Shown here in pieces: positions 305-63,684 of a DNA stretch of 64,000 nt. Below the pieces are notes generated by a model. The model saw only the letters and a program-made list of their open reading frames with translations, was not told where the DNA came from and did no database searches. The position numbers and the translations under genes are program-made. The stretch is from Glaucostegus cemiculus (taxonomy: Eukaryota), in assembly GCA_976551045.1 (NCBI GenBank), contig CDPCPM010000180.1, positions 13,144,001 to 13,208,000 on the forward strand, read 5' to 3'. How positions within the stretch are numbered: position 1 is the stretch's first letter; each line of letters begins with the position of its first letter.

Positions 305-1940
305 TATAAGGCAAAAGCTAACAGCATAAATGGCATTGATGCCTCACTCCCCAATGAGCTCAATGCCTTTTATGCACGCTTTGAAAGAGAGAATAACATT
401 ATGCCTGTGTGATTCCCCATAGCCCTCTGATCTCTGTCTCAGAGGCCGACGTCAGAACACCCTTCAAGTGGGTGAATCCTCACAAGGCGTCAGGCCCCAA
501 CGGTGTATTTGGTAGGGGACAGAAAATCTTTGCTAACCAACTGGCTGGAATGTTCAAGAACATCTTCAATCTCTCACTGCTGCATTCAGAGGTTTCCACC
601 TGTTTCAAAAGGGCATCAATCATACCGGTGCCCAAGAAGAGCAGGGCAAGCTGCCTCAATGACTATTGCCAAGTAGCACTCACACCTACTGAGATGAAGT
701 GCTCTGAGAGATTGGTCATGGCTAGAATTAACTCCTGCCTGAACCAGGGCCTGGACCTGCTGCAATTTGCCAATTGCCACAACAGGTCCTCCAGCAGATG
801 GAATCTCATTGCCTCTTCACAGCAATACATCAGGCTACTGTTTATTGATTACAGCTCGGTGTTCAACACCATCATCCCCACAGTATTATTCAACAAGCTT
901 CAATATCTGAGCCTCTGTACCTTCCTCTGCAACTGGATCCTTGACTTCCTTATCGGGAGATCAGTCAGTGCGTATTGGTAGTAACACCTCCTCCTCGCTG
1001 ACAATCAACACCGGCGCACCTCAAGGATGCATGCTTAGCCCATTGTTCTACTCTCTCTACACTCATGTCTGTGTGGCTAGGCACAGTTTAAATACGATCT
1101 ATAAATTCGCCAATGACACCACTGTGTTTGGCAGATTCTCACATGGCAACAAGGAGGCGTACAAGAGTGAGATAAATCAGCTGGTTGAGTGGTTTTGTAA
1201 CAGCAATCTTCACTCAACAAAGGAATTAATCATGGACTTCAGAGTGGGGGAATAGGGAGAACACATACCAGTCCTCATTGAGGGGTCAGCAGTGGAAAGG
1301 GTGAGCAGCTTCAAGTTTCTGGGTGTCAACATCTCTGAGGATCTATCCTGGGTCCAACACACTGCTGCAGTCATGAAGAAGGCATGTCAGTGGCTCTACT
1401 TCATCAGGAGTTTGAGGAGATTTGTCGTTAGATTTGAGGAGTATGTTGTTAAAGACTCTTACAAGTTTCTACGGGTGTACAGTGGAGAGCATTCTGACTG
1501 GTTGTATCACCTGCTAGTATGGGAGGCTCCAATGTGCAGGATCGAAAGAGGCTGCAGAGGGTTGTAGAATCTGCCAGCTCCATCACAGACACAACCTTCC
1601 TCACCATTGAGGACATCTTCAAGAGGTGGTGCCTCAAGAAGACGGCATCCATCATTAAGGACCCTCACCATTCGAGAACATGCCCTCTTCTCATTACTAC
1701 CACCAGGGAGGAGGTATAAGAGCCTGAGGACCTGCAGTCAACATTTTAGAAACAGCATCTTCCCCTCCACCATCAGATTTCTGAATGGTCCATGAACACT
1801 ACCTCGTTATTCCTTTATCGCACTACTTATTTATTTTTGTTTATAACTTGTAGTAAATTTTATGCTTTGCACTGTACCACTGCTGCAAAACAACAAAATT
1901 CACCATACACTGTATGTCAGTGATAATAAACCCAACTCTG
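305..1940 (+). mobile_element. Rex1/Babar-clade LINE, 5'-truncated and frameshifted (RT through 3' UTR)
   Basis: Successive ORF fragments: [64 protein letters not shown] (FADD), FKFLG, SIIKDPHH. Ends GATAATAAACCCAACTCTG, a degenerate AATAAA+(CTGATT)n tail. Confidence 0.9.
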
Positions 1941-6140: not shown

Positions 6141-7828
6141 TCAATCCTATTCGAAGCCTGGCCTCGGGAAAGAAGAAATGCACAGTACATTTTCATCTCT
6201 GAAAAGGTGCAATGCCCATTTCTTCAAGGGCTCCATCACAACTGAATATTAGATTGGTGGGGCTTAGACCAAAATGATTGTTGGCACCATACAGCTGGTT
6301 TGTTCCTTATTAATGTTCCTTTAGCATGCAATACTTCCTCTATATTCACATGACAAATTGAAATGCATGCAAGGAATATAGGAATGTATTCACAGAGGGA
6401 GCATAATTTGATCTTAATTACTATCCATCCATTTGTGCCTGTTGTCATTCCGCCTAAGTTATAACTTTTCTCTCAGCTCGTGCAAAGATGTAATATATTT
6501 AGCCTGAATCAATAGTTCAATAATGAATACCTTTAAAAATCCTTATACAATGATGTATAAGAGGTCATAAGTTCTGCAGATGCCTTGGTTTGAAAGAGAA
6601 ATATCTATTCATTATTTTCTCTGTAATACTAAAACACTGATGACTATGTGCTGTCAGTGGTTAGTGATAGATTTATCCTGATGCAAAATAGTCCTAACCA
6701 AATGCATAAACCAGTTATAAAGTCAATAAACATTTCTCTACATCAAGAATGAAAGAATCATGAAAATACTATATGTCAGATGATAAGATTTGATACATTT
6801 AAAAAAAAGCTAAAGAAAATTGTAGTTCTAATGAAGGTGTCACTAACATGAATCTATCAAATAAAAAAAACGCAATACACACAGAGGGTTTGCAATGAAA
6901 TCTTCTGACTCAGCTCTTGGTAGTAATATTACCTGCTGATAAAGATGCGACCCACTTTTATAAAAGATACCATCTAGCTTCCAGCTGAATACCTTAATGG
7001 CAAGGAGTAAGGGCAGTACTAAACATCCAAATTAGAAAAACATATTTATCAGAGGAATGTAGTGGTGAAAGATTTTGTAGACAGGAAATTTTAGTGAAAT
7101 CTGATTTTAAATTTAGTGAAAATCATTGATTACAAGTGTTTTAGATGGATGAAACCAGTGTAGGATAAGAGACTTACAGTAGAGTTGTGAACCTATTGGT
7201 TTCCAAAAGGTTATGGATGGGAAGTTTCCCAGGAAAGAGAATAGTTGAGTCCAGAGGTGACAAATATACAAGTAGCGATTTCAGTAGCAGATGGACTAAG
7301 ACAACGTATCATGGAATTGGAGGTGATGTTTCCGATGGAAAGAAGTGTAAATCAGTTTGAGGTCAAACTTGATGGCAAAACTAATGAAAATCATTAGTTT
7401 AATGCATTGCCCAGTCCATCACAGGCTTGTCACTTCCTTCCATCCAGTCCATCTTCATGATAACTTGCTTCAGGAAGGCTAATAGTATCGTCAAGGATGC
7501 CTACCACCCTGGACATTTCCTTTTCTTCCTTCTACCTTATGGGAGAAGATATAGGAGCTTGAAATCATGGATGACCAGACTCAAGAACAGGTTCTTCTCC
7601 ACTGGTAATGGATTCCTGAACCAATCACGTCTTTCACATCCCCTTCCCAGTGGTACTTCCACATTATTAGACACTTAATTCTTCCTCTCCCGGTTATTCT
7701 GTTGGTGTCACCTCAGCATTTCTTTTTGCACTACTTCAGATTGCACTGCTATCTTTGCACAATTGTTGTTTTGCACTCATTGCTATATTTATTGTTATAT
7801 TTATTATTACCACGTATACTGTATGCTC

Positions 7829-8549
7829 CTACCAGCCTATGTATCCAACACATCATTCTCTGCCACTTCCACCATCTCCAACGGGACCCCACTACCAAGC
7901 ATATCTTCCCCTTACCACCTCTTTCTGCCTTTCGCAGGGACCGCTGTGTCTGCCACTCCCCCACCCCCATCCATCCTGCTCCCACTCCGGGAACTTCCCG
8001 CTGCCCCCACCATAGCTGCAACACCTGCCCCTACGCCACCTCCATCACCGCCATTCAGAGACCCAAATGGTCCTTTCAGGTGGGACAGAGATTCACTTGC
8101 ACCTCCCTTAATATCATCTATTGCATTCTCTGCTCCAAACTGACCCGCCTCCCCCCACCAAAACCATGCTGCTTCTTTTCTTCCCTTTCCTAGCCTAACT
8201 CTTTTCTCTAACCCCTTTTTCCCTGTCTTTCCTTACCTTTGACCCATCCCCTGGTGGATCTGCTGTCCCCTCCTCCCTTGCACCTGCCTATCACTATCTC
8301 TTACCTGCATCTACCTTTCATCATTTTGTGCCCACCCCGCTTCCCCTCTTTTGTCCACCTATCACCGCTCTGCTTTTCCCTCCTATGTATTGGGCTTCCC
8401 CTTTTCCTATCTTCAGTCCTGAAGAAGGGTCCTGACCTTAAACATTGACTGCCTGCTTTTCTCCACGGATGCTGCTTGGCCTGCTGAGTTCCTTCAGCAT
8501 CACAGTGTTTTTCATCTAGATTCCAGCATCTGCAGTCCTTTGTTTCTCC
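7829..8549 (+). mobile_element. Penelope-like element (PLE) 3' fragment, internally deleted
   Basis: IQHIILCHFHHLQRDPTTKHIF..PLSAFRRDR, Cys linker RCPHHSCNTCPY, and FTCTS.NIIYCILCS (start of GIY-YIG), then pyrimidine-rich UTR. Flanked by imperfect direct repeat ACTGTATGCTC (7818-7828) / ACTGTTTACTC (8550-8560). Confidence 0.85.
8414..8451 (+). ncRNA. Degenerate minimal type I hammerhead ribozyme motif in PLE terminal repeat
   Basis: CAGTC-CTGAAGA-AGGGTCCTGACCT-TAAAC-ATT-GACTG: stem I CAGTC/GACTG, CUGANGA box and stem II present; GAAAC mutated to TAAAC. Confidence 0.65.
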
Positions 8550-25645: not shown

Positions 25646-26099
25646 GAGCTTTGTCTCTTTTGTGTTATTCTATCCTTTTTAATTACAAACAGAAATCAAA
25701 CGCTTGGAATTTGGAAACTGTAGTGGCTGTGCTGTTCTTCCAGATATATGGTCCTGAGCATATGGGCATGTACACCAACAGTGTCATGTAAGTCCCATGT
25801 CACATTGGGAATGACAGATTTTAGCTATACTAACAAAGTCCATTGATGGCAATCTGTCAAAAGAATTCCTTGCCTGCCAAAACCAAGAAATAAATTAATG
25901 TTGTTTATAAGACTCTAACCACTCTAATTAGTTTACCTCTATCAATACACCAATGAGAGTTTAACACCTGTCATTAATAAGGATTTTCTTTTGGTGCAGG
26001 GATTTCATGTACCTTAATGTTCTCTTTCTGGCAACCTGGACATCCAAGTGATATTAATAGCAGTGCAGCACATGAAAATCTTTACTGGTGAGATTTTCT

Positions 26100-26794
26100 A
26101 TCAGAATCAGAATCAGTTTATTGTCACTTTCATGTATACATGAAGGTGAGATATCGTACTCCACAGGCCAATGTGCAAAAGACATTAAAGACAATAAAGG
26201 ACAACAGGACAAAAACATCAAAACATTGGAGCCGCATGGACTTCGGTCTGCTGGTACAACACGTCTCCCAGAACCTCAACATTACATCTCCCAGCCCCCA
26301 GCCTCGCCCCGCACCGACGACCACCTCCAGCCCCCGCAGTCCTACAACCTCCGGGCCCACAGTCCAACAACAACCTCCGGCCCCACAGTCCGATCCGATG
26401 ACCACCTCCGGCCCCGCAGTCCGACCACCTCCGGCTCCTTCACCTCCGGCCCCGCAGTCCGACGACCTCCGGCTCCTTCGCCTCCGGCTCCGCAGGCCGA
26501 ACACCTCCGGCCCGGGCAGCCCCCTGACCGCCCGCATCCCGACGCCACCACGAGGATCCAGGGCCTTCAACATGCTGTCGCCTCTGACGAGCTCCGACGA
26601 GCTGTCGGAGCCGTCAGCACAGACAACGACTCCATAAAACGAACACCAAGCACACAAACATTAAGAACAAACATCAGGAACAAAGAACACACAAAAAAAA
26701 AACAGCACAAAAACACTAAAAGACTAACAGAAAACACTAAGCACTACAGACCCGGGAGAGGCCGCTGCAACTGTGTGCGCCGCCATCTTGGATC
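26100..26794 (-). mobile_element. Non-autonomous, non-coding retroposon with Rex1/Babar 3' tail and internal GC-rich minisatellite
   Basis: Minus strand starts GATCCAAGATGGCGGCG, then a T/G-rich tract and 23-38-bp repeats; ends GTGACAATAAACTGATTCTGATTCTGAT like the Rex copy ending at 31939. Confidence 0.75.
26313..26520. repeat. GC-rich minisatellite (core CCGACCACCTCCGGCCCCGCAGT), about 7 variable units
   Basis: Repeated CCTCCGGC and CAGTCC visible directly. Confidence 0.85.
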
Positions 26795-27242
26795 ACAATA
26801 ATGTTAATAAGATTGTCATTATTCATAACACATAAAAACAGCTTTCAATAATGCTGAAAACTTAAACTCAACATTATCTAAAGAGAAAGTACATTTCTCC
26901 TAAGTATATAAGCAGAATGCAACACAGTGCCTGTAAAATAAACTTGACTATATCAAACTAGGAGCCCAATTTGCCCCAAGGTGGCTTCCCTTTCAAACAG
27001 AAGTCATATGGTGCTTCGGGGGCGAGGGGGAGGGAAGAGTGGTTGGGGGAGAAGAACCTATACAGGCTTCTGATGAGTGGTGTGTGCAGGAAACAGCTTG
27101 AACAAACTGCATTCATGGCAGAAAGATAGGCAAGCGTCTATAAAAACCTTCTAGGTATGACTGCACTTTTGTCAGTCTTACTGTGCAGCCAAATACCCCT
27201 TCCAGGCTTAAATGCAAAAGTCACATTTTCCTGGACACTGTC

Positions 27243-30698: not shown

Positions 30699-31646
30699 AT
30701 GACGAACAGGGTCTTACCAGGGGCGAGTGCTCCCTCCTCCCCCTCCCCCCTTAACTGGATACTGGATTTTCTAACTTGCAGGCCGCAGTCAGTCAAAATT
30801 GGTGAAAGCACCTCAAGCACCATCACACTGAGCACTGGCTCCCCACAGGGTTGTGTGCTCAGTCCGCTCCTGTTCACCTTGTTGACTCACGACTGTGAGG
30901 CCAGATCCAGCTCCAACCGCATTGTTAAATTTGCCGATGACACGACAGTGGTGGGTCTTGTCACGAATGACGATGAGTCGGACTACAGAGAGGAGGTGAA
31001 ACAACTAGCCGTGTGGTGCCATGACAACAACCTCTCCTTGAATGTGGATAAAACCAAGGAGATGATAGTGGATTTTAGGAGGGGTCACCGTGTGCATGCC
31101 CCGCTGACCATCAACGGGTCTGCTGTGGAACAAGTATGCAGCACCAAGTTCCTGGGGGTGCACATCACCGACGACCTGACCTGGTCCACTAACATTACGG
31201 CCCTTACGAAGAAAGCTCAGAAACGCCTCTACTTCCTGAGGAGACTGAGGAAAGCGTACCCCCATCCCTCCATCATGAAAACCTTCTATAGGGGGACCAT
31301 TGAGAGCATCCTAACTCAATGTATCACTGTTTGGTTTGGAAGCTGCTCAGCTGCTGGGCGGAAGTCCCTCCAGAAGATAGTTAGGGCTGTGGAGTGGATC
31401 ATAGGTGTCTCGCTTCCATCCCTCGCAGACATATACAAAGACCGTCGTGTGAGGAAGACCAAAAGCATAATGGCCGACCCTTCTCACCCCTCCCACCACC
31501 TCTTCACAATTTTTCCATCAGGGAGGAGGCTTAAATGTATCAGGGCAAGAACGACCAGGCTGAACAATAGCTTCTTTCCGCAAGCCATCAGAACTGCAAA
31601 CTCTCTCGTCTGTCCATCTTCCTTTGTTAACACTAAGAGATGCTAG
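30699..31646 (+). pseudogene. Truncated Rex1/Babar ORF2 (C-terminal half of RT with FADD motif); first ~17 codons are not RT-like
   Basis: 315-aa ORF in the track; lacks endonuclease and N-terminal RT domains. Confidence 0.8.
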
Positions 31647-42560: not shown

Positions 42561-42976
42561 AATGTGGAACTAACTAGATGGGGAGGACAGTTAAGTTAAT
42601 AGTTTACCCCTCTGTCTGATCCTATTCACCTTCCCACCTTATCCAAATGTTAACCTGCTCTTACAGACACTAAAGTGGGCAAAGTCCAATTAAAAATTGT
42701 AAATACTGCCATTATTAAGAATAGGGCTGGTAAAACTAGTACCATTTAAACAATTCCTGGAAAACATCATCCCTGCAGCAATCAAAGTCATTGTGAATCA
42801 AAAACCTAGGATTCTAGATAAGGCATTTATCTAAATAGCTGGGGAAGGGGCTGAAGGACAAGATTCAGATGAAGAGCATTTAGAAAGTTAAGCAGAACAG
42901 ACAAGGCAATAGTGCTGGTTAGCAGAATAGTTAATGATCACCAGAAAGTGTCAGGAAGGGAAGTATAACAGTACAG

Positions 42977-43211
42977 TGTAGCAGCCAGCAGGGTGCGACT
43001 TAAAAGACCATGAGGACACGGAGACTTGATCGAGCACTTTTTAATAACTCACCACAAGCCACACATAACCCGAACTAACTAAAAACATGGCCGGCGGAAG
43101 TAACGTCATACTCCCGCCGGAAGTCCCGCCTTCCGGCACTATCGCCAGAACTCGCGCATTTCCCCGCAACGGCCGATGGCGTTTCAGATCTCAACATCAT
43201 GAGTCGCTACA
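42977..43211 (-). repeat. 3' LTR (235 bp)
   Basis: TGTAGC...GCTACA termini; 17 substitutions vs the other LTR by manual count; ATTAAA on minus strand near 43040. Confidence 0.97.
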
Positions 43212-43228
43212 CCCCCCCCCCCCCCCCC
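43212..43228 (-). other. Polypurine tract (G17)
   Basis: C17 run on + directly abutting the 3' LTR. Confidence 0.9.
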
Positions 43229-46200
43229 AGAAACGCCCAGCAGAGGTGCGGGGCCATCAACCCGACCGCCCAGCTTGGGAGGCCGACCCCGCCGGTGTGG
43301 CGAAGGCACCCTGACCGGGAGTGCAATGTCCAGATGCGCCGGCTTCAGGCGGTCCACTGTGAAAGTCTACTCACGACCCCCAACCTCGATGACATATGTT
43401 GAACCACTGCACCAGACCACCCGAAAAGGCCCCTCGTACGGCTTCTGCAGGGGCGACCCATGTGCTCCCCGGCGGATGAAAACGTACTCACAGCCCTGGA
43501 GGTCCTTCAGAACGAAAGAAGGTGCTGTGCCGTGCCTGGAGGCCGGGATCGGTGCCAAGGTCCCCACCTTGGCCCTCAGCTTCGCTAACACTTCCGCTGA
43601 GGTCCCTGCTGGGTCCTGAGCCCCTGGTACGAACTCGCCCGGTACCGTGAGGGGGGAACCGTAGACCAGCTCGGCTGAGGAGGTGTCCAAATCTTCCTTG
43701 GGGGCCGTACGGATGCCCAGCAGGACCTAGGGGAGCTCGTTTGTCCAGTTAGGTCCCTGCATGCGAGCCATCAGGGCGGACTTGAGATGCTGGTGGAAGC
43801 GCTCCACCAAACCATTGGCCTGCGGGTGGTATGCTGTGGTGTGATGCAGGTGGGAACCCAGGAGCTGCGCCAGTGCCGTCCACGAGCCGGACGTGAACTG
43901 CGCCCCTCGGTCGGGGGTAACGTCCGCTGGGAGGCCAAACCGGGCAATCCAGTGGGCAATGAGGGCTCTGGCACAGGACGCGGTGGACGTGTCTGCCAGC
44001 GGCACTGCCTCTGGCCACCTGGTGAACCTGTCCACCACAGTGAAAATGTACCTGGCGCCCCGGGAAACTGGCAGTGGTCTGACGATGTCCACGTGGATGC
44101 GCTGGAACCTGCCGGTGTTGGCTGAAAATGCTGGAGGGGAGCCTTCACGTGCCGCTGGACCTTGGCTGTCTGACAGTGCACGCAGGTTCTGGCCCAGTGC
44201 CCAACCTGCTTGCGTAGACCATGCCATACGAATTTTTCTGCCACCATCCTGATAGTTGCCCTGATGGACGGGTGGGACAGGCTATGTAGGGCGCCGAAAC
44301 CCGTCGTCTCCATGCTGCTGGCACCACTGGCCGGGGTCTGCCAGTAGACGTGTCACACAGGAGCTGGATCGCTGTAGGGCCAACAGGAACATCTTCCAGC
44401 CGGAGTCCCGAGAGCGCAGTGCGGTATGTCGGGATCTCTTTGTCTGCCTGCTGCGCTTGCACCAGCGCCGTGTAGTCGACGCCTGTGGCTGGGGTGGTCA
44501 CTGAATGGATGTGGGGGCAGGACAGCGTGTCGGCGACCACATTGCTCTTCCCAGCGATGTGGTGGATGTCGGTGGAAAACTCCGAAATGAAGGAGAGGTG
44601 CCATTGCTGCCGAGCCGACCACGGGTCCGACGTCTTAGCCAAGGTAAACGTGAGGGGCTTGTGGTCTGTGTAGATGGTAAAGTACCTCCCCTCAAGGAAA
44701 TAATGGAAATGGCGGACAGCCAGGTAAAGAACCAGCAGCTCCCTATCAAAAACGCTGTACCTGACCTCTGGCGGCCGCAAATGTCGGCTGAAAAAAGTGA
44801 GCGGTCTCCACTGGCCCTCAACGAGTTGTTCCAAAACCCCACCGACCACCGTATCAGAAGCGTCGACAGTGAGCGCTGTGGGGACGTCGACTCTTGGGTG
44901 CACCAAAAGTGTTGCCTTGGCCAGTGCCTCCTTAGCCTGATTGAAAGCTGCCGAGGCCTCCGCGTCCCAAACAACATCCTTGGCCTTGCCGGCCATGAGT
45001 CCGAACAAGGGTCGCATGATGCGTGCTACTGCTGGCACAAAATGGTGGTAGAAGTTCACCATTCCCACAAATTCTTGCAGGCCCTTGACCGTGTAGGGCT
45101 TGGGAAATTGGAGGACGGCCTGCACCTTGTCGGGTAGTGGGGTGGCACCAAGCTGGTTCACCCTGTGGCCCAAGAAGTTGATCTCCCGCAGCCCGAACTG
45201 GCACTTCGCCAAGTTGATCACCAACCCGTGGTCGCTCAGGCGCTGGCAGAGCTGATGGAGATGGGCTGAGTGCTCCTTGCGTGACTTGCTGGCTACCAGG
45301 ATGTCATCCAGGTACACAAAAGCAAAATCGAGGCCTCTGCTCACTGAGTCCATTAGCCATTGAAAAGTCTGGGCGGCGTTCTTTAGGCCGAAAGGCATTC
45401 GGAGGAACTCGAACAGCCCAAAGGGGGTGATGAGGGCTGTTTTGGGCATGTCGTCGGGGTGAACAGGGATCTGATGGTATCCCCGGACCAGGTCAATCCT
45501 AGAGAAAATGGTCGCCCCATGGAGGTTCGCTGTGAAGTCCTGGATGTGGGACACAGGGTACCTGTCGGCAGTCGTGGCATCATTGAGTCTCCACAGGGTC
45601 TCCAGCCCGCCACTGCTTTGGGCACCATGTGGAGCGGGGATGCCCATGGGCTGTCGGAATGGCGGATGATGCCCAACTCCTCCATCCTGCGAAACTCCTC
45701 CTTGGCGAGGCGGAGCATGTCGGGCGGGAGCCTGCGGGCACGGGCATGTAGTGGAGGTCCCTGTATGGTGATGTAGTGCTGCACGCCGTGCTTGGGGACT
45801 GCAGCGGAGAATTGAGGGGTGATAATGGAAGGAAACTCTGCCAACACCTTAGCAAACTCGTCGTTGGAGAGTGCAACAGAGTCAAGGTGGGGGGCAGGTG
45901 ACCGGGCCTTCCCGAGCTGGTAGCTTTGGAAAGTCTCAGCATGGACCAGACGCCGGCCCTTCAGATCGACCATCAAGCGGTTGGCGCGCAGGAAATCCGC
46001 CCCTAGCAGTGGCTGCGATACCGCTGCTACAGTGAAAGTCCAGGTAAACAAACTGGTCCCAAAACGTAACGGGATGGTGTGCAGGCCGTAGGTGCAGATG
46101 GTAGAGCCGTTCGCAGCGGTGAGTTCTGGGCCTTTGACCGCGTTGCGGGTATCCATGTTGGAGGGGGGAAGGACGCTGATTTCGGCCCCCATATCCACCA

Positions 46201-46297
46201 GGAAACGCCGCTCAGTGAGCCGGTCCCAAAGGAAGAGTAGGCTGTCTCCCTGGCCAGCCGTCGAAGCCACTAACGACGGCCGGCCTCGGCGTTTCCC
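43229..46297 (-). pseudogene. pol: pol (protease, RT, RNase H, integrase), disabled
   Basis: FLVDMGAEIS (DTG altered), [65 protein letters not shown]. Frameshifts near 45590, 44300 and 44120; stops at 43727-43729 and 43367-43369. Confidence 0.95.
46252..46297 (-). promoter_or_regulatory. Predicted -1 ribosomal frameshift signal
   Basis: G GGA AAC (46297-46291) in gag phase, 5-nt spacer, stem GGCCGGCCGTCG / CGACGGCTGGCC; pol continues in the -1 frame. Confidence 0.85.
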
Positions 46298-46974
46298 GGG
46301 AAAGAACACGGCAGCTGGCAGTGGCGCGCATTTGTCCCCCACCTCTTGTGGTAGAAACACCAGTTCCCTGGGCCTTTGTCTTTGTCCTCTGCGGGCCCTG
46401 ACTGTTTGGGTTTCGGAACCTTAGCCGGAGGCTACGAGGCTGACGCTACGCAGGCGGAGGTCACTCCTCGCTGCTGACTGCACCAAATGACATCTGCTGT
46501 GGCCGCGAGGGCACGCGAGTCGCTGAAATCTCCATCGGCGAGGAGGGGGCGCATATCATCCAGGAGTTGCTCGAGGAATAGCTGCCGGAACAGGAAACAT
46601 GGCTGATGGTCGTCCATGAGTGCCAGCATCTTGTCTATCAACTCGGAGGGCTTGCAGTCACCTAGGCCATCCATATGGAGGAGCCTCGTGGCTTGGTCGT
46701 TGAGGGAAAGGCCGAATGTGCGGATGAGGAGAGCCTTGATTCGGGCGTACCTGTCCTCCGTCGGTGGCTGGCGTTGGAAATCGATGATGCGACCAGCCAT
46801 GTCCTGGTCGAGGGCGCTGACCACGTAGCAATACTTCGTGGCGTCGGCTTCGATGCCCCTGACGCTGAACTGGGCCTCGGCCTGCTCAAACCAGACTCGA
46901 GGCTGCGAGGTCCAGAAAACCGGGAGCTTGAGTGCCACGGAGTTGTGGGAGGCAGTATCCGTCGGGGTCACCAA
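46270..46974 (-). pseudogene. gag: gag with C-x2-H-x9-C-x3-C (CHCC) knuckle; one premature stop
   Basis: KLPVFWTSQPRVWFEQAEAQF; TAG at 46432-46434; same frame continues to WCFYHKRWGTNARHCQLPCSFPGNAEAGRR* (stop 46270-46272). Confidence 0.9.
46960..46973 (-). other. Primer binding site, tRNA-Trp
   Basis: TGGTGACCCCGACG, 2 nt after the 5' LTR, complementary to the vertebrate tRNA-Trp 3' end (..CGTCGGGGTCA-CCA, from memory). Confidence 0.88.
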
Positions 46975-46975
46975 A

Positions 46976-47210
46976 TGTAGCAGCCAGCAGGGTGCGACTT
47001 AAAAGACCATGAGGACACGGAGACTCGATCGAGCACGTTTTAGTAACTCACCACAAGCCACACATAACCTGAACTAACTAAAAACATGGCTGACGGAAGT
47101 GACGTCATACTCCCGCCAGAAGTCCCGCCTTCCGGCACTATCGTGGGAACTCGCGCGTTTCCCCGCAACGGCAGACGGTGTTTCAGATCCCGACATCATG
47201 AGTCGCTACA
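46976..47210 (-). repeat. 5' LTR (235 bp)
   Basis: Direct repeat of 42977-43211; adjacent to the PBS. Confidence 0.97.
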
Positions 47211-47507
47211 ACAGATCCAATTAGAGTCAGAAAAGGGGAAAGTGAGGGGAAAAAAGACAAAACTGAAGATTCCTTATCTAAATCCATGTAGCCTTTGTAA
47301 TAAGATTGACGTGTTCACATGAATAGAAAAAAATGGGTGTGAACTGAATGTCTCTATTAAGGGAAATAGAGGAGGGTTAGCTCTGGTAATAAAAGATGAG
47401 ATAAAGGCAATGGAAAGAAAAAAATTCTTAGCTTGAAAATCAAGAAGTATAATCAGTTTGGGTGGAGCTGAGAGAAGTCAGGAACATAACTCATTGGTTG
47501 AAGTCAC

Positions 47508-47625
47508 ATGAGTGGTAGAGAAATGGGGGCTATGTGGGAGGGAAGGATCTTAGAGCAAGCTAAAATGTCGGCACATCATTGTGGGCCAAAGGGCCTGTAC
47601 TGTGCTGTAATGTTCTATGTTCTAA
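47508..47625 (+). mobile_element. Short CR1 3'-tail insertion inside the older CR1
   Basis: GTCGGCACATCATTGTGGGCCAAAGGGCCTGTACTGTGCTGTAATGTTCTATGTTCTA. Confidence 0.75.
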
Positions 47626-48191: not shown

Positions 48192-49370
48192 AGAACATAA
48201 GAAAGTGGGAGCTGGAATAGGCCACCCTGAGCCTCAAGCCCACCCCTTTATTCATTATGATTATGGCTGATCTGCCCCAAGCCTTGTCTTCTCTCTTGTG
48301 CCAGTTCCCCTTAGCCCACAATGTCCTAATCTTTCACAAATATATGTATTTCCTCTTTAAGTACCTCCAGTGTACCAGCTGCACAACCCTCTGGGATAGA
48401 GAAGTCCAGAGATTCTCCACCCTCTGCAAGAAGTTCTTCCCATGCACCTCAATTTTAAATGACCTCTCCCCAGCCTTGTAACTCTGTTCCATCATTTGAG
48501 GTCCTCCCACTGGTGGAAGTAGCTCAACCTCTACCCAGTCCTGCTCCCTAATCATCTTACATATTTCAGTAAGATCACTCCTCATTCTTCTGAATTCCAA
48601 ATAATATAGATCCAGTTTCTTTAGCTGCTCGTGGTAAAACAACCCCCTCTCTCCAGGAGTTAGCTTGGTGAATCTCTTTTGGACTGCCTCCAATGTAAGT
48701 AGATCCTTTCTTAAAGAAAGGAAGCCTAATTGTGTACAGTGCTCCAGCTGTAGCCTTACCAGTGCTCTGTCCGCTTATAACAATATACTGTAATTCCCTC
48801 TTTCTAAACTCCATCCCTCTTGCAATAAAGCCCAATATCTCATTTGCTTTCCTTACCACCTGCTACACCTACCTGCCAACTTTTGTGATTCCTTTGTACT
48901 AAGATCATCTGCAATCTTGCTCTAGTTAGATATGAGTCTGCCTTTAAATTCTTCTCACTGAAGTGCATGACCTCTCATTTTCCCACATTAAATTCCACTT
49001 CCCAAGTTCTTGCCCACTCAATCAACCTATCTATATCCCACTGCAGTCATGTGTTAACTTGAATGCATTAGAATTTGCCCTGTCCTGCAAGTCATTAACA
49101 TAAATCATAAATAATTGAAGTCAAGAATTTGTCCACTAATTACATCCTTTCAACCCAAGAAAACAAGTGATTATTCTGACCAATTATCGATCCATGCTAA
49201 TACACTTACATATGCTATTTTCTTGTACATCAGCCTTTTTATATGGCACCTTGTCAAATGCTTTCGTAAAATCCAAATACATAACATATACAGGTTCCCC
49301 TCTATCAACTCTGCCTGTTACATTCTCAAAATACTCCAGCAAATATGCTCAATAGGATTTATGTTTCATA
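48192..49370 (-). mobile_element. CR1 LINE RT and 3' end
   Basis: VIYLDF.KAFDKVP (about 49245-49290), KANEILGFIARG, EAVQKRFTKL, FRRMRSDL; AAGAACATAAGA tail on +. Confidence 0.88.
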
Positions 49371-62337: not shown

Positions 62338-63064
62338 TTCAGAATCAGATTTATTATCATTGATATATGATGTGAAATTTGTTGTTTTGCAGCAGCAGTA
62401 CAGTGCAAGACATACAAACCTATAAATTACAAAAAATAAATAGTGCAAAGGAATAATGAGGTAGTTTTCATGGATCATTCAGAAATCTGATGGCAGAGGG
62501 GAAGAAGCTGTTCCTAAATCATTGAGTTTTGGTCTTCAGGCTCCCTGCTGGTAGTAATGCCAAGAGGGCATATCCCGGATGGTGAGGGTCCTTAATGATA
62601 GATACCGCCTTCTTGAGGCACCTCCTCTTAAAGATATCTTCAATGGCGGGGAGGTTGTGTCCGTGATAGAGCTGAATGAGTCTATAACCCTCTGCAGCCC
62701 TCTTGCGATCCAGTGCATTATAGACTCCATACCAGGGAGTAACGCAACCAGTCAGGATGTCCTCCAGCGAACATCTGTAGAAAATAACAAGATTCTTTGA
62801 TGACATACCAAATCTCTTCAAACTCCTAATGGAGTAGAGCTGCCAGCGCACCTTCTTCATGATTGCATCAATGTGTTGGGCCCAGAACAGATCCTCTGAG
62901 ATGATAACACCCAGGAATTTGAAGCTGCTCACCCTTTCCACCACTGACCCCTCAATGAGGACTGGTGTGTGTTCTCCTGACCTCCCCTTCTTCAAGTCCA
63001 CAATCAGTTCCTTGGTCTTGCTGAAGCTGAGTGCGAGGCTGTTGTTGTGACACCACTCAACCAG
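62338..63064 (-). mobile_element. Rex1/Babar LINE 3' part nested in CR1
   Basis: LVEWCHNNSL..KTKELIVD..VERVSSFKFLG..IIKDPHHPG; tail AATAAATCTGATTCTGA; same subfamily as 305-1940. Confidence 0.92.
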
Positions 63065-63684
63065 TGTATGAGTGATTTGGCTATGTATGTAGGAGGCATG
63101 ATCATTAAGTTTGCAGATGACACAGTGTGGTGGAGTTGTTGGTAGGGCAGAGGCATGGTTAAGAAGCCATGTGGAATACTGGCCTTCATTAGTTGGGACA
63201 TTAAATACAGGAACAGGGAGTTTATGCTCCAATTTTAAACATTGGTCAGACCTCAGCTGAAGTACTGTGTGCAGATTTGGTCAGCACAGTATAGGAAAGA
63301 TGTGATAGCACCAGAGAGGGTGCAGTGAAGATTCACCAGGACGTTGCCTGGGATGGAGCATTTCATTTGTGAGGAGGAGGAAAGAGTGGAGGAGGTTAAG
63401 AGGGGACATGATTGGGGTACATATAATTATGGGGGGTATAGGTAGGGTAAACGAAATGAAACTATTCTTTCTAACCAAAGGTAGATAAAACTAGAGGACT
63501 TGGATTGAGAGTAAAAGTTTTCGGGTGGATCTGAATGGGACCTGTTCCATCCAGAGAGTGGAGAGTACCTAGAATACACTGCCTGAGAGAGTGGTGGAAG
63601 CAGAATCACTGACAGCATTTATGAAGTATCTAGATGAGCATTAGGCATCGATGGCTGTGGACCAACTGCTGGAAGATCGGATTT

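What the first reader, a model, noticed from the sequence alone, without database searches (positions are those of the whole stretch)
42977..47210. Complete, very compact CsRn1/Kabuki/Boudicca-type Gypsy element in a vertebrate-like genome
Seen: 4,234 bp, 235-bp LTRs, 4-bp ACAG TSD, tRNA-Trp PBS, a CHCC knuckle (46306-46359) instead of CCHC, and GC/CpG content far above the flanks. Known: CHCC gag plus Trp primer characterise the CsRn1 clade, first described from trematodes (CsRn1, Boudicca) and silkworm (Kabuki). Inference: a poorly described fish member of that clade, possibly acquired horizontally. Horizontal transfer is not demonstrated here.
Basis: partly seen in the sequence, partly recalled or inferred. 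Interest (0 to 1): 0.7.

Follow-up and report, generated by a model that had tools for sequence, protein, structure and literature searches.

The report
Worn copy of young ray retrotransposon
This is a broken, older copy of a jumping gene with the hallmarks of the known CsRn1 group, present in over a thousand copies in a ray genome along with young intact copies that are likely still moving; relatives in other rays indicate it is likely a long-time resident, and an ancient arrival from a crustacean-like host is possible but unproven.

Summary
The anatomy is real: 4,234 bp, 235-bp LTRs, ACAG duplication, tRNA-Trp primer site, CX2HX9CX3C knuckle, high GC/CpG. But this copy is dead (gag start deleted, three frameshifts, two stops; LTRs differ at 17 of 235 sites), and its size is ordinary: pufferfish CsRN1 elements are 4.3-4.6 kb. 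The host is a batoid (RAG1 tree). The family has at least 1,107 LTR-primer junctions in the genome and a very young subfamily (12 of 29 sampled with identical LTRs; 29 of 29 with stop-free gag and pol in a -1 overlap at GGGAAAC). Aberrant copies carrying 16-35 nt of host tRNA-Trp complement support the primer. A sister family in this genome matches sawfish, stingray and devil-ray proteins, and both group with a skate element (99/97; 57 after recoding). So recent horizontal transfer is unsupported, and the GC/CpG contrast is no sign of it. An ancient entry into stem batoids stays open: pol is as close to a crab element (73.4%) as to the skate one (73.1%), and no shark was named among the hits, though over 90% of hits are unnamed. 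A tree with CsRn1/Kabuki references could not be built. Verdict: new member of a known kind.

The parts
46976..47210 (-). 5' LTR, 235 bp, TGT...ACA
46960..46973 (-). Primer-binding site, 14 nt, complementary to the 3' end of host tRNA-Trp(CCA); 2-nt spacer from the LTR
46270..46959 (-). gag (capsid-like DUF7041 domain plus knuckle); broken: 25-bp deletion at its 5' end removes the start, stop at 46432-46434
   Evidence: Pfam PF23055 E 1.9e-20; capsid-like fold, weak matches only
46306..46359 (-). CX2HX9CX3C (CHCC) knuckle, behind the premature stop in this copy
46291..46297 (-). GGGAAAC heptamer in the gag/pol overlap, predicted -1 frameshift site
   Evidence: kept in 29 of 29 young and 22 of 29 old copies
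46252..46285 (-). 12-bp RNA hairpin 5 nt behind the heptamer, predicted frameshift stimulator
   Evidence: fold z -2.33, 4 of 200 dinucleotide shuffles as good
43240..46290 (-). pol: protease (motif 46201-46187, altered here), RT (YLDD 45314-45303), RNase H (DAS 44867-44856), integrase (HHCC 44286-44167, core 44095-43793, GPF 43438-43424); broken by frameshifts near 45588, 44300, 44115 and a stop at 43727-43729; outer limits approximate
   Evidence: Pfam RVT_1, RT_RNaseH, Integrase_H2C2, rve over cut-off; protease below cut-off at E 0.007
43212..43228 (-). Polypurine tract (17 G)
42977..43211 (-). 3' LTR, 235 bp
42973..42976 (+). Target-site duplication ACAG, left copy
47211..47214 (+). Target-site duplication ACAG, right copy

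Best explanation
This is a dead, older copy of a high-copy Gypsy LTR retrotransposon family with all tested CsRn1 hallmarks in a batoid (ray) genome, a family that is likely still transposing and has likely lived in batoids since early in their history. Mechanism of intact members: the 5' LTR is inferred to drive a ~4-kb RNA. A 230-aa Gag (capsid-like domain plus CHCC knuckle) is read directly, and Gag-Pol is predicted to arise by -1 ribosomal frameshifting at GGGAAAC helped by a hairpin. Reverse transcription is primed by host tRNA-Trp (supported by sequence: 14-nt match, plus aberrant copies holding longer tRNA copies) and, by inference, by the G tract for the second strand. Integrase makes a 4-bp duplication at sites with a weak palindromic preference (shown). 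There is no env, so replication would be intracellular in the germ line. The window copy belongs to an older burst and has decayed since, fastest at CpG.
For: Anatomy. Copy number: 1,107 exact LTR-end + primer-site 24-mers, reversed control 0; this pattern is in 15 of 30 old, 29 of 30 young and 0 of 14 sister-family loci. Older burst: 29 copies, mean pairwise K2P 0.054, star-like tree, LTR-LTR K2P 0.040-0.107, CpG sites 16% against 3.7% elsewhere. Young subfamily 90% identical to the window: pairwise 0.006, LTR-LTR 0-0.013, 12 of 29 identical, 29 of 29 with stop-free gag and pol offset by -1 over 73 nt; old-versus-young dN/dS 0.21 against 0.56 among old copies. Primer: 5 of 12 pattern loci are tRNA-Trp(CCA) genes; 4 others are LTR elements with 16-35 nt of tRNA complement that resume inside the element. 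4-bp duplication exact in 51 of 58 copies, 5-bp in 0. Residence: gag hits from Pristis, Hypanus and Mobula; the Pristis gag finds a sister family here at up to 84% over its full length, with LTR pairs 80-99% alike; pol tree joins both families with a Rhinoraja element at 99/97; AU test rejects joining the window family to the crab-like group, p 7e-8.
Against: No tree with named CsRn1, Kabuki or Boudicca sequences. Ongoing activity rests on identical LTRs and open frames only: no RNA or polymorphism data. The young loci were picked as best matches to an intact pol, so their share of the family is unknown. The batoid branch rests on one skate protein and falls to 57 after six-state recoding; ray and skate proteins share a G/A/R/P-rich make-up (0.35, 0.37 against 0.31 in the crab cluster) that could pull them together. 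The frameshift is predicted, and the hairpin z-score is moderate. Ages are uncalibrated.
Confidence: 0.85

Rival explanations
1. On origin: the batoid lineage was founded by one ancient horizontal transfer from an invertebrate, crustacean-like host into stem batoids, and has been inherited and diversified since. This is compatible with the best explanation and concerns only where the lineage came from.
For: Over about 815 RT-RH-IN columns the young ray pol is 73.4% identical to a cluster holding Petrolisthes cinctipes proteins, 73.1% to the skate and 67.6% to the tunicate Phallusia; tree paths 0.58 to the crab cluster and 0.63 to the skate. In pol and gag trees the batoid group sits beside decapod and Trichuris elements. 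No shark, chimaera or teleost name among 120 + 120 best hits or 30 clusters opened, although shark proteins are in the collection. Parallels in print: elasmobranch Zenon LINEs group with crustacean ones (PMC13343379 passages); shrimp-fish transfers (PMC5055719 abstract).
Against: Only 8 of 120 pol hits and 7 of 120 gag hits carry an organism name, so absence from sharks is weak. The node joining batoids, crab-like rows and Trichuris is open (89/88). Strong purifying selection (dN/dS 0.21) and ancient parallel lineages can give the same picture. No DNA of the crab or skate elements was at hand, so no dS test.
Confidence: 0.4
2. On origin: purely vertical descent from an old bilaterian pool of CsRn1 lineages, with slow protein change and patchy loss.
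For: The clade is reported from trematodes, cestodes, insects, molluscs and teleosts. Many lineages at 60-74% identity coexist, and two live side by side in this genome.
Against: It needs a ray-crab split of well over 500 My (recalled figure) to leave no more divergence than the ray-skate split, and a tunicate element to be farther than a crab element.
Confidence: 0.35
3. On origin: several independent transfers from related invertebrate donors into different batoid lineages; the batoid branch is a composition artefact.
For: Skate placement is weak after recoding (57); the window family's gag core is closer to crab proteins (69-73%) than to Pristis or Hypanus (61%).
Against: The two families in this genome group at 100 in both the mixture-model and recoded trees, and the sister family is shared with Pristis, Hypanus and Mobula; the AU test rejects window family + crab-like group.
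Confidence: 0.2

Closest known systems
CsRn1 clade of Ty3/Gypsy (CsRn1 of Clonorchis, PwRn1 of Paragonimus, AgCR-1 to -14 of Anopheles; PMC2582038 passages and section 6; Kabuki named as a member in PMC6238403 passages; Boudicca's membership is recalled, not read)
   Same: tRNA-Trp primer site, CX2HX9CX3C knuckle, 4-bp duplication, PR-RT-RH-IN order with GPY/F motif, no env or chromodomain; -1 gag/pol overlap as in nine AgCR elements.
   Different: Canonical TGT...ACA ends (that paper reports TGT...AAA or ATA); shorter than PwRn1 (5,400 bp, 381-bp LTR), whose gag and pol are one frame; a measurable palindromic target preference around the duplication, where that paper saw no preferred target bases; vertebrate host.
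Teleost CsRN1 families (CsRN1-1 and CsRN1-2 of pufferfishes, PMC11117352 passages; medaka 1, stickleback 2, Tetraodon 1 family, PMC4746887 passages)
   Same: Vertebrate host, length 4.3-4.6 kb, LTRs 174-302 bp, pol of about 1,060 aa.
   Different: Far more copies here (at least 1,107 junctions against 39 full-length sequences reported there); gag was not detected in that survey; sequence relationship to the ray family untested.
Unannotated batoid gene models: Rhinoraja XP_078264112.1 (pol), Pristis XP_051875026.1, Hypanus XP_059810283.1, Mobula XP_062889690.1 (gag, Pfam DUF7041)
   Same: Same CHCC gag or pol type; they group with this genome's families.
   Different: Listed only as uncharacterized proteins; 53-55% (gag) and 70-73% (pol) identical to the window's family; the Pristis/Hypanus/Mobula type matches the sister family with ~290-bp LTRs.
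Decapod elements (Petrolisthes cinctipes, P. manimaculis, Portunus trituberculatus gene models)
   Same: Nearest named non-vertebrate relatives: pol 72-73%, gag core 69-73%.
   Different: Separate branch (95/93); lower G/A/R/P content; DNA not seen.

Membership tests
CsRn1 clade (Ty3/Gypsy) | Primer-binding site for tRNA-Trp | tested here: met
   14-nt match to host tRNA-Trp(CCA) genes called by ARAGORN; aberrant copies hold 16-35 nt of tRNA complement
CsRn1 clade (Ty3/Gypsy) | Gag knuckle CX2HX9CX3C instead of CCHC | tested here: met
   46359-46306; 29 of 29 young and 28 of 29 old copies; 116 of 120 gag relatives, 0 with CCHC
CsRn1 clade (Ty3/Gypsy) | 4-bp target-site duplication | tested here: met
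   ACAG in the window; exact in 51 of 58 copies, 5-bp in 0 of 58
CsRn1 clade (Ty3/Gypsy) | PR-RT-RH-IN order, GPY/F motif, no env or chromodomain | tested here: met
   Pfam order, motif places; the integrase tail runs up to the purine tract and leaves no room for env
CsRn1 clade (Ty3/Gypsy) | gag/pol arrangement among those reported (fused, same frame, or -1 overlap) | tested here: met
   -1 overlap of 73 nt with GGGAAAC in 29 of 29 young copies; frameshifting itself not assayed
CsRn1 clade (Ty3/Gypsy) | RT/RH/IN groups with CsRn1, Kabuki, PwRn1 in a tree | not testable with these tools
   No named reference sequence came up, and GyDB, Repbase and Dfam are not held; trees hold only relatives found by search
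Gmr clade / Copia order | Integrase upstream of RT | tested here: not met
   Integrase lies behind RNase H
Chromoviruses (Sushi/V-clade), errantiviruses, endogenous retroviruses | CCHC knuckle, chromodomain or env gene | tested here: not met
   CHCC knuckle; no Pfam hit at E 0.1 on the integrase tail; no space for env. These defining features are recalled.
Recent horizontal transposon transfer | Element divergence between distant hosts lower than host-gene divergence | tested here: inconclusive
   Protein level only: no relative above 73%, host RAG1 85-88% among batoids; dS needs donor DNA that was not available

The most novel reading that the evidence does not exclude
A CsRn1-type retrotransposon jumped once from a decapod-like invertebrate into the ancestor of rays and skates, missed the sharks, split into at least two families, and is still transposing in a slow-evolving vertebrate germ line, where its gag also turns up fused to host genes in predicted isoforms (RNF185-gag in two stingrays).
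Probability: 0.3. Interest if true: 0.55.

Novelty: new member of a known kind. Interest (0 to 1): 0.3.

Why it matters
The copy itself is ordinary. The family extends the CsRn1 type to cartilaginous fishes, where no description was found in the searches run, and shows a likely live LTR retrotransposon with over a thousand copies in a lineage known for very low point-mutation rates (PMC10587355 passages), so insertions could be a real share of new variation there. Its dated insertions would serve as homoplasy-poor markers for ray phylogeny. If the crustacean link holds, it adds an LTR case to the few invertebrate-to-elasmobranch transfers. It also suggests that Pfam DUF7041 is the capsid domain of CsRn1-type Gag.

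Tried and rejected
1. Reference tree with CsRn1, Kabuki, Boudicca: no named reference among the 120 listed of 5,130 pol hits or the 120 listed of 314 gag hits; not built.
2. High GC/CpG as a transfer signal: rejected, because young copies are richer still (0.62 / 0.86) and the family has several age classes.
3. Absolute dating: non-CpG LTR divergence is 7 of 185 sites. The only rate read (7e-10 per generation, epaulette shark) gives about 27 million generations, which looks too old for the deeper sister-family copies, so only relative ages are given.
4. Targeting of a particular repeat: one locus found with the right flank also held a family copy, and flanks shared repeats in 36 of 58 loci, 32 near pairs against 10 outer pairs in the same 28 loci, but at varied distances and orientations; no fixed target shown.
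5. Sequencing runs: no RNA holder listed. Two DNA contig runs of one sample cover the element deeply and one contig joins the left flank to the LTR; this may be the assembly's own sample and is not independent.
6. Fold search of the Gag model (pLDDT 85): no match at E 0.001; 7 of the first 7 rows are retroelement-type capsids (PNMA2, dArc1, BLV, Arc, MLV), best E 0.31, weak support only. The VIA searches did not run.
8. Earlier scan notes: nothing by sequence or words.
9. Rows dropped before counts: L018 (three LTR hits), L040 (self-match caught a flank repeat; left out of LTR and frame counts), L038 (left out of the duplication count), 5 of 14 sister-family stretches too broken for the RT tree; the 31-row tree is a hand-picked subset of the nearest 120 hits.
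Full report
Observation. Two 235-bp direct repeats bound 4,234 bp at 42977-47210. They differ at 17 sites (14 transitions, K2P 0.077), end in TGT...ACA and are flanked by ACAG. The element reads on the - strand: 5' LTR, a 14-nt primer site at 46973-46960, gag, pol, a run of 17 G and the 3' LTR. Pfam finds DUF7041, RT, RNase H, integrase zinc finger and core over their cut-offs in Gypsy order, and a protease below cut-off. 46359-46306 reads CX2HX9CX3C. GC is 0.595 and CpG o/e 0.74, against 0.40 and 0.18 for the rest of the window.

The copy is dead. Against 28 sister copies it lacks 25 bp behind the primer site, 10 bp near 45588 and single bases near 44300 and 44115. The first ATG of the gag frame behind the LTR is at 46800, inside the capsid domain. 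Stops lie at 46432-46434, ahead of the knuckle, and at 43727-43729, and the protease active-site motif is altered.

Host. The 2.85-Gb genome's RAG1 is 85-88% identical to three batoids and 81-83% to three sharks and groups with the batoids at 100/99 in a 9-row tree. An earlier scan note also called it a ray (e1-9324827; a lead, not support).

Family in the genome. The internal region gave 3,250 candidates, of which 39 were scored; 35 matches, the window's own included, are near full length at 93-95%. An exact 24-mer across the LTR end and primer site occurs 1,107 times, control 0. It is present in only 15 of 30 old loci, so the count is a floor. The 29 old copies analysed form a star (mean K2P 0.054; 1,175 singleton variants), with LTR pairs at K2P 0.040-0.107 and 16% change at CpG against 3.7% elsewhere. 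Of these 29, 11 keep a stop-free gag frame, 7 a stop-free pol, 2 both. A search with a skate pol (42 scored of 25,981 candidates) brought up a young subfamily 90% identical to the window. The 30 loci fetched have mean pairwise K2P 0.006; 12 of 29 have identical LTRs; GC is 0.62 and CpG o/e 0.86. All 29 have stop-free gag and pol. These loci were chosen by likeness to an intact pol, so they overstate the intact share. dN/dS is 0.21 between old and young, 0.22 among young and 0.56 among old copies (42, 15 and 21 pairs from 7 old and 6 young copies), as expected for a selected master lineage that leaves decaying copies.

Mechanism. Supported by sequence: tRNA-Trp priming. The primer site matches CCA plus 11 nt of host tRNA-Trp(CCA) genes, called in 5 of 12 loci fetched with a primer-derived pattern. 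Four more of the 12 are LTR elements that carry 16-35 nt of tRNA complement and then resume inside the element; the other three are neither. Shown: a 4-bp duplication in 51 of 58 copies with a weak palindromic site preference. Predicted: Gag-Pol by -1 frameshifting, since pol lies in the -1 frame over a 73-nt overlap holding GGGAAAC in 29 of 29 young copies, with a 12-bp hairpin 5 nt downstream (z -2.33). Predicted: Gag is a two-lobed helical capsid (pLDDT 85) whose best structural matches are retroelement capsids, none at E 0.001; the Atlas also listed Ty3-capsid clusters at 0.91 for a Pristis homologue. Inferred: LTR-driven transcription, intracellular particles, current activity.

Relatives. 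For RT-RH the best named hits are a skate (Rhinoraja, 71%), a cluster with Petrolisthes cinctipes proteins (72%), Trichuris muris and Phallusia (62%) and Sparganum (47-52%). For gag they are Pristis, Hypanus and Mobula (53-55%), Trichuris suis (59%), Petrolisthes (57%) and Portunus (73% over 63% of the length); 116 of 120 gag hits carry the CHCC motif, none CCHC. The Pristis gag finds a second family in this genome at up to 84% over full length, with ~290-bp LTRs 80-99% alike. In a 31-row RT-RH-IN tree (LG+C20) the two families join at 100/99 and, with the skate, at 99/97, beside a crab-like group (95/93) and Trichuris in an open node (89/88). Forcing the window family with the crab-like group is rejected (p-AU 7e-8; the group was named after seeing the tree). 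Against this, six-state recoding leaves the skate's link at 57, ray and skate proteins share a composition bias, and the gag core is closer to crabs (69-73%) than to other rays (61%) although the gag tree groups the rays at 0.89.

Horizontal transfer. A recent transfer is unsupported: no relative exceeds 73%, only 2 runs of one organism hold the DNA, and the genome holds several age classes and an older sister family. The GC/CpG contrast is greatest in the youngest copies and so marks the element's own make-up. An ancient transfer is open. Ray-crab pol identity (73.4%) equals ray-skate (73.1%) and exceeds ray-tunicate (67.6%), and no shark, chimaera or teleost was named among 240 listed hits and 30 clusters. 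But only 15 of the 240 hits carry an organism name, no donor DNA was available for dS, and ancient parallel lineages under strong selection could give the same pattern. I put one ancient transfer at 0.40, vertical descent at 0.35, several transfers at 0.20 and a recent one at 0.05.

What is known. The clade's marks (Trp primer, CX2HX9CX3C, 4-bp duplication, -1 overlap in nine AgCR elements) are from PMC2582038 (passages and section 6). A 2013 paper lists CsRN1 as metazoan excluding vertebrates (PMC3601003 passages), but teleost members are reported: medaka, stickleback and Tetraodon (PMC4746887 passages) and pufferfish elements of 4,337 and 4,552 bp with 174- and 302-bp LTRs (PMC11117352 passages and section 15). 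The clade also appears in a table of a frog survey (PMC4131045 passages), in molluscs (PMC6238403 passages) and in tapeworms (PMC12471100 passages). Batoid genome papers give only class totals (Gypsy/DIRS1 2.5-3.7%; bioRxiv 10.64898/2026.10.27.761883 passages; 10.1101/2025.06.08.657570 passages; their supplements were not seen and may hold repeat lists). Seven searches (listings and abstract starts) showed no paper on CsRn1-type elements in cartilaginous fishes. The original CsRn1, Kabuki and Boudicca papers, GyDB, Repbase and Dfam were not available, so the family may already be catalogued.

Verdict. A real but ordinary, broken copy of a CsRn1-type family. New here, as far as the searches reach, are the host group, the size and youth of the family, the primer fossils and the open crustacean link. 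New member of a known kind; interest 0.3.

Noticed in passing
P0310 and P0426 (Hypanus sabinus and Hemitrygon akajei RNF185 isoform X1); P0425 (Mobula slc35g1 isoform X2): Predicted host isoforms join the RING domain of RNF185 in frame to a whole CHCC gag of the sister family, 96.5% identical over 343 aa in two stingray genera. This suggests a shared insertion with a splice into the LTR/leader; a RING-capsid fusion could act on the element's particles, but these are gene-model predictions only.
   Followed up: partly
L100 (= L038), L102, L103, L097: Copies in which 16-35 nt of tRNA-Trp complement follow the LTR and the sequence then resumes at an internal place (70 nt on, 3.3 kb on, or in inverted orientation). 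Likely aberrant plus-strand transfers: the primer site pairs over only 14 nt, so a longer tRNA copy would have to re-anneal elsewhere.
   Followed up: partly
51 insertion sites among L001-L061: Weak palindromic target preference AAWNATG-NNNN-CATNWTT: pooled over both sides, A at -7 in 71 of 102, A at -6 in 65, A at -3 in 65, G at -1 in 47 (p 1e-16 to 4e-9).
   Followed up: yes
L062-L087: A second CsRn1-type family in the genome: ~290-bp LTRs, 4.2-4.4 kb, 64-68% DNA identity to the window element, LTR pairs 80-99% alike in 12 of 14 stretches, gag up to 84% identical to a Pristis protein.
   Followed up: partly
window 47211-47560 and 42700-42976: The element sits in an old multi-copy repeat (706 candidates, best other matches 75-96% over short pieces); its translation recalls the endonuclease start of a CR1-like LINE (motif recalled, not tested).
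   Followed up: partly
window 30699-31646 (+), 397-981 (+), 62519-63280 (-), 48334-48774 (-), 7609-8193 (+): Other repeat-like open frames: LINE reverse-transcriptase tails of Rex1/CR1 look and a Penelope-like piece, by recalled motifs; the first is CpG-rich and looks young.
   Followed up: no
window 26076-26801: A CpG-rich stretch (o/e 0.54) with short internal repeats and open frames on both strands.
   Followed up: no
G000:C110 and C64: The tRNA-Trp 3' pattern has 105 exact matches, about 34 of them spread along contig C110; 4 of 4 fetched from C64 are tRNA-Trp genes.
   Followed up: no
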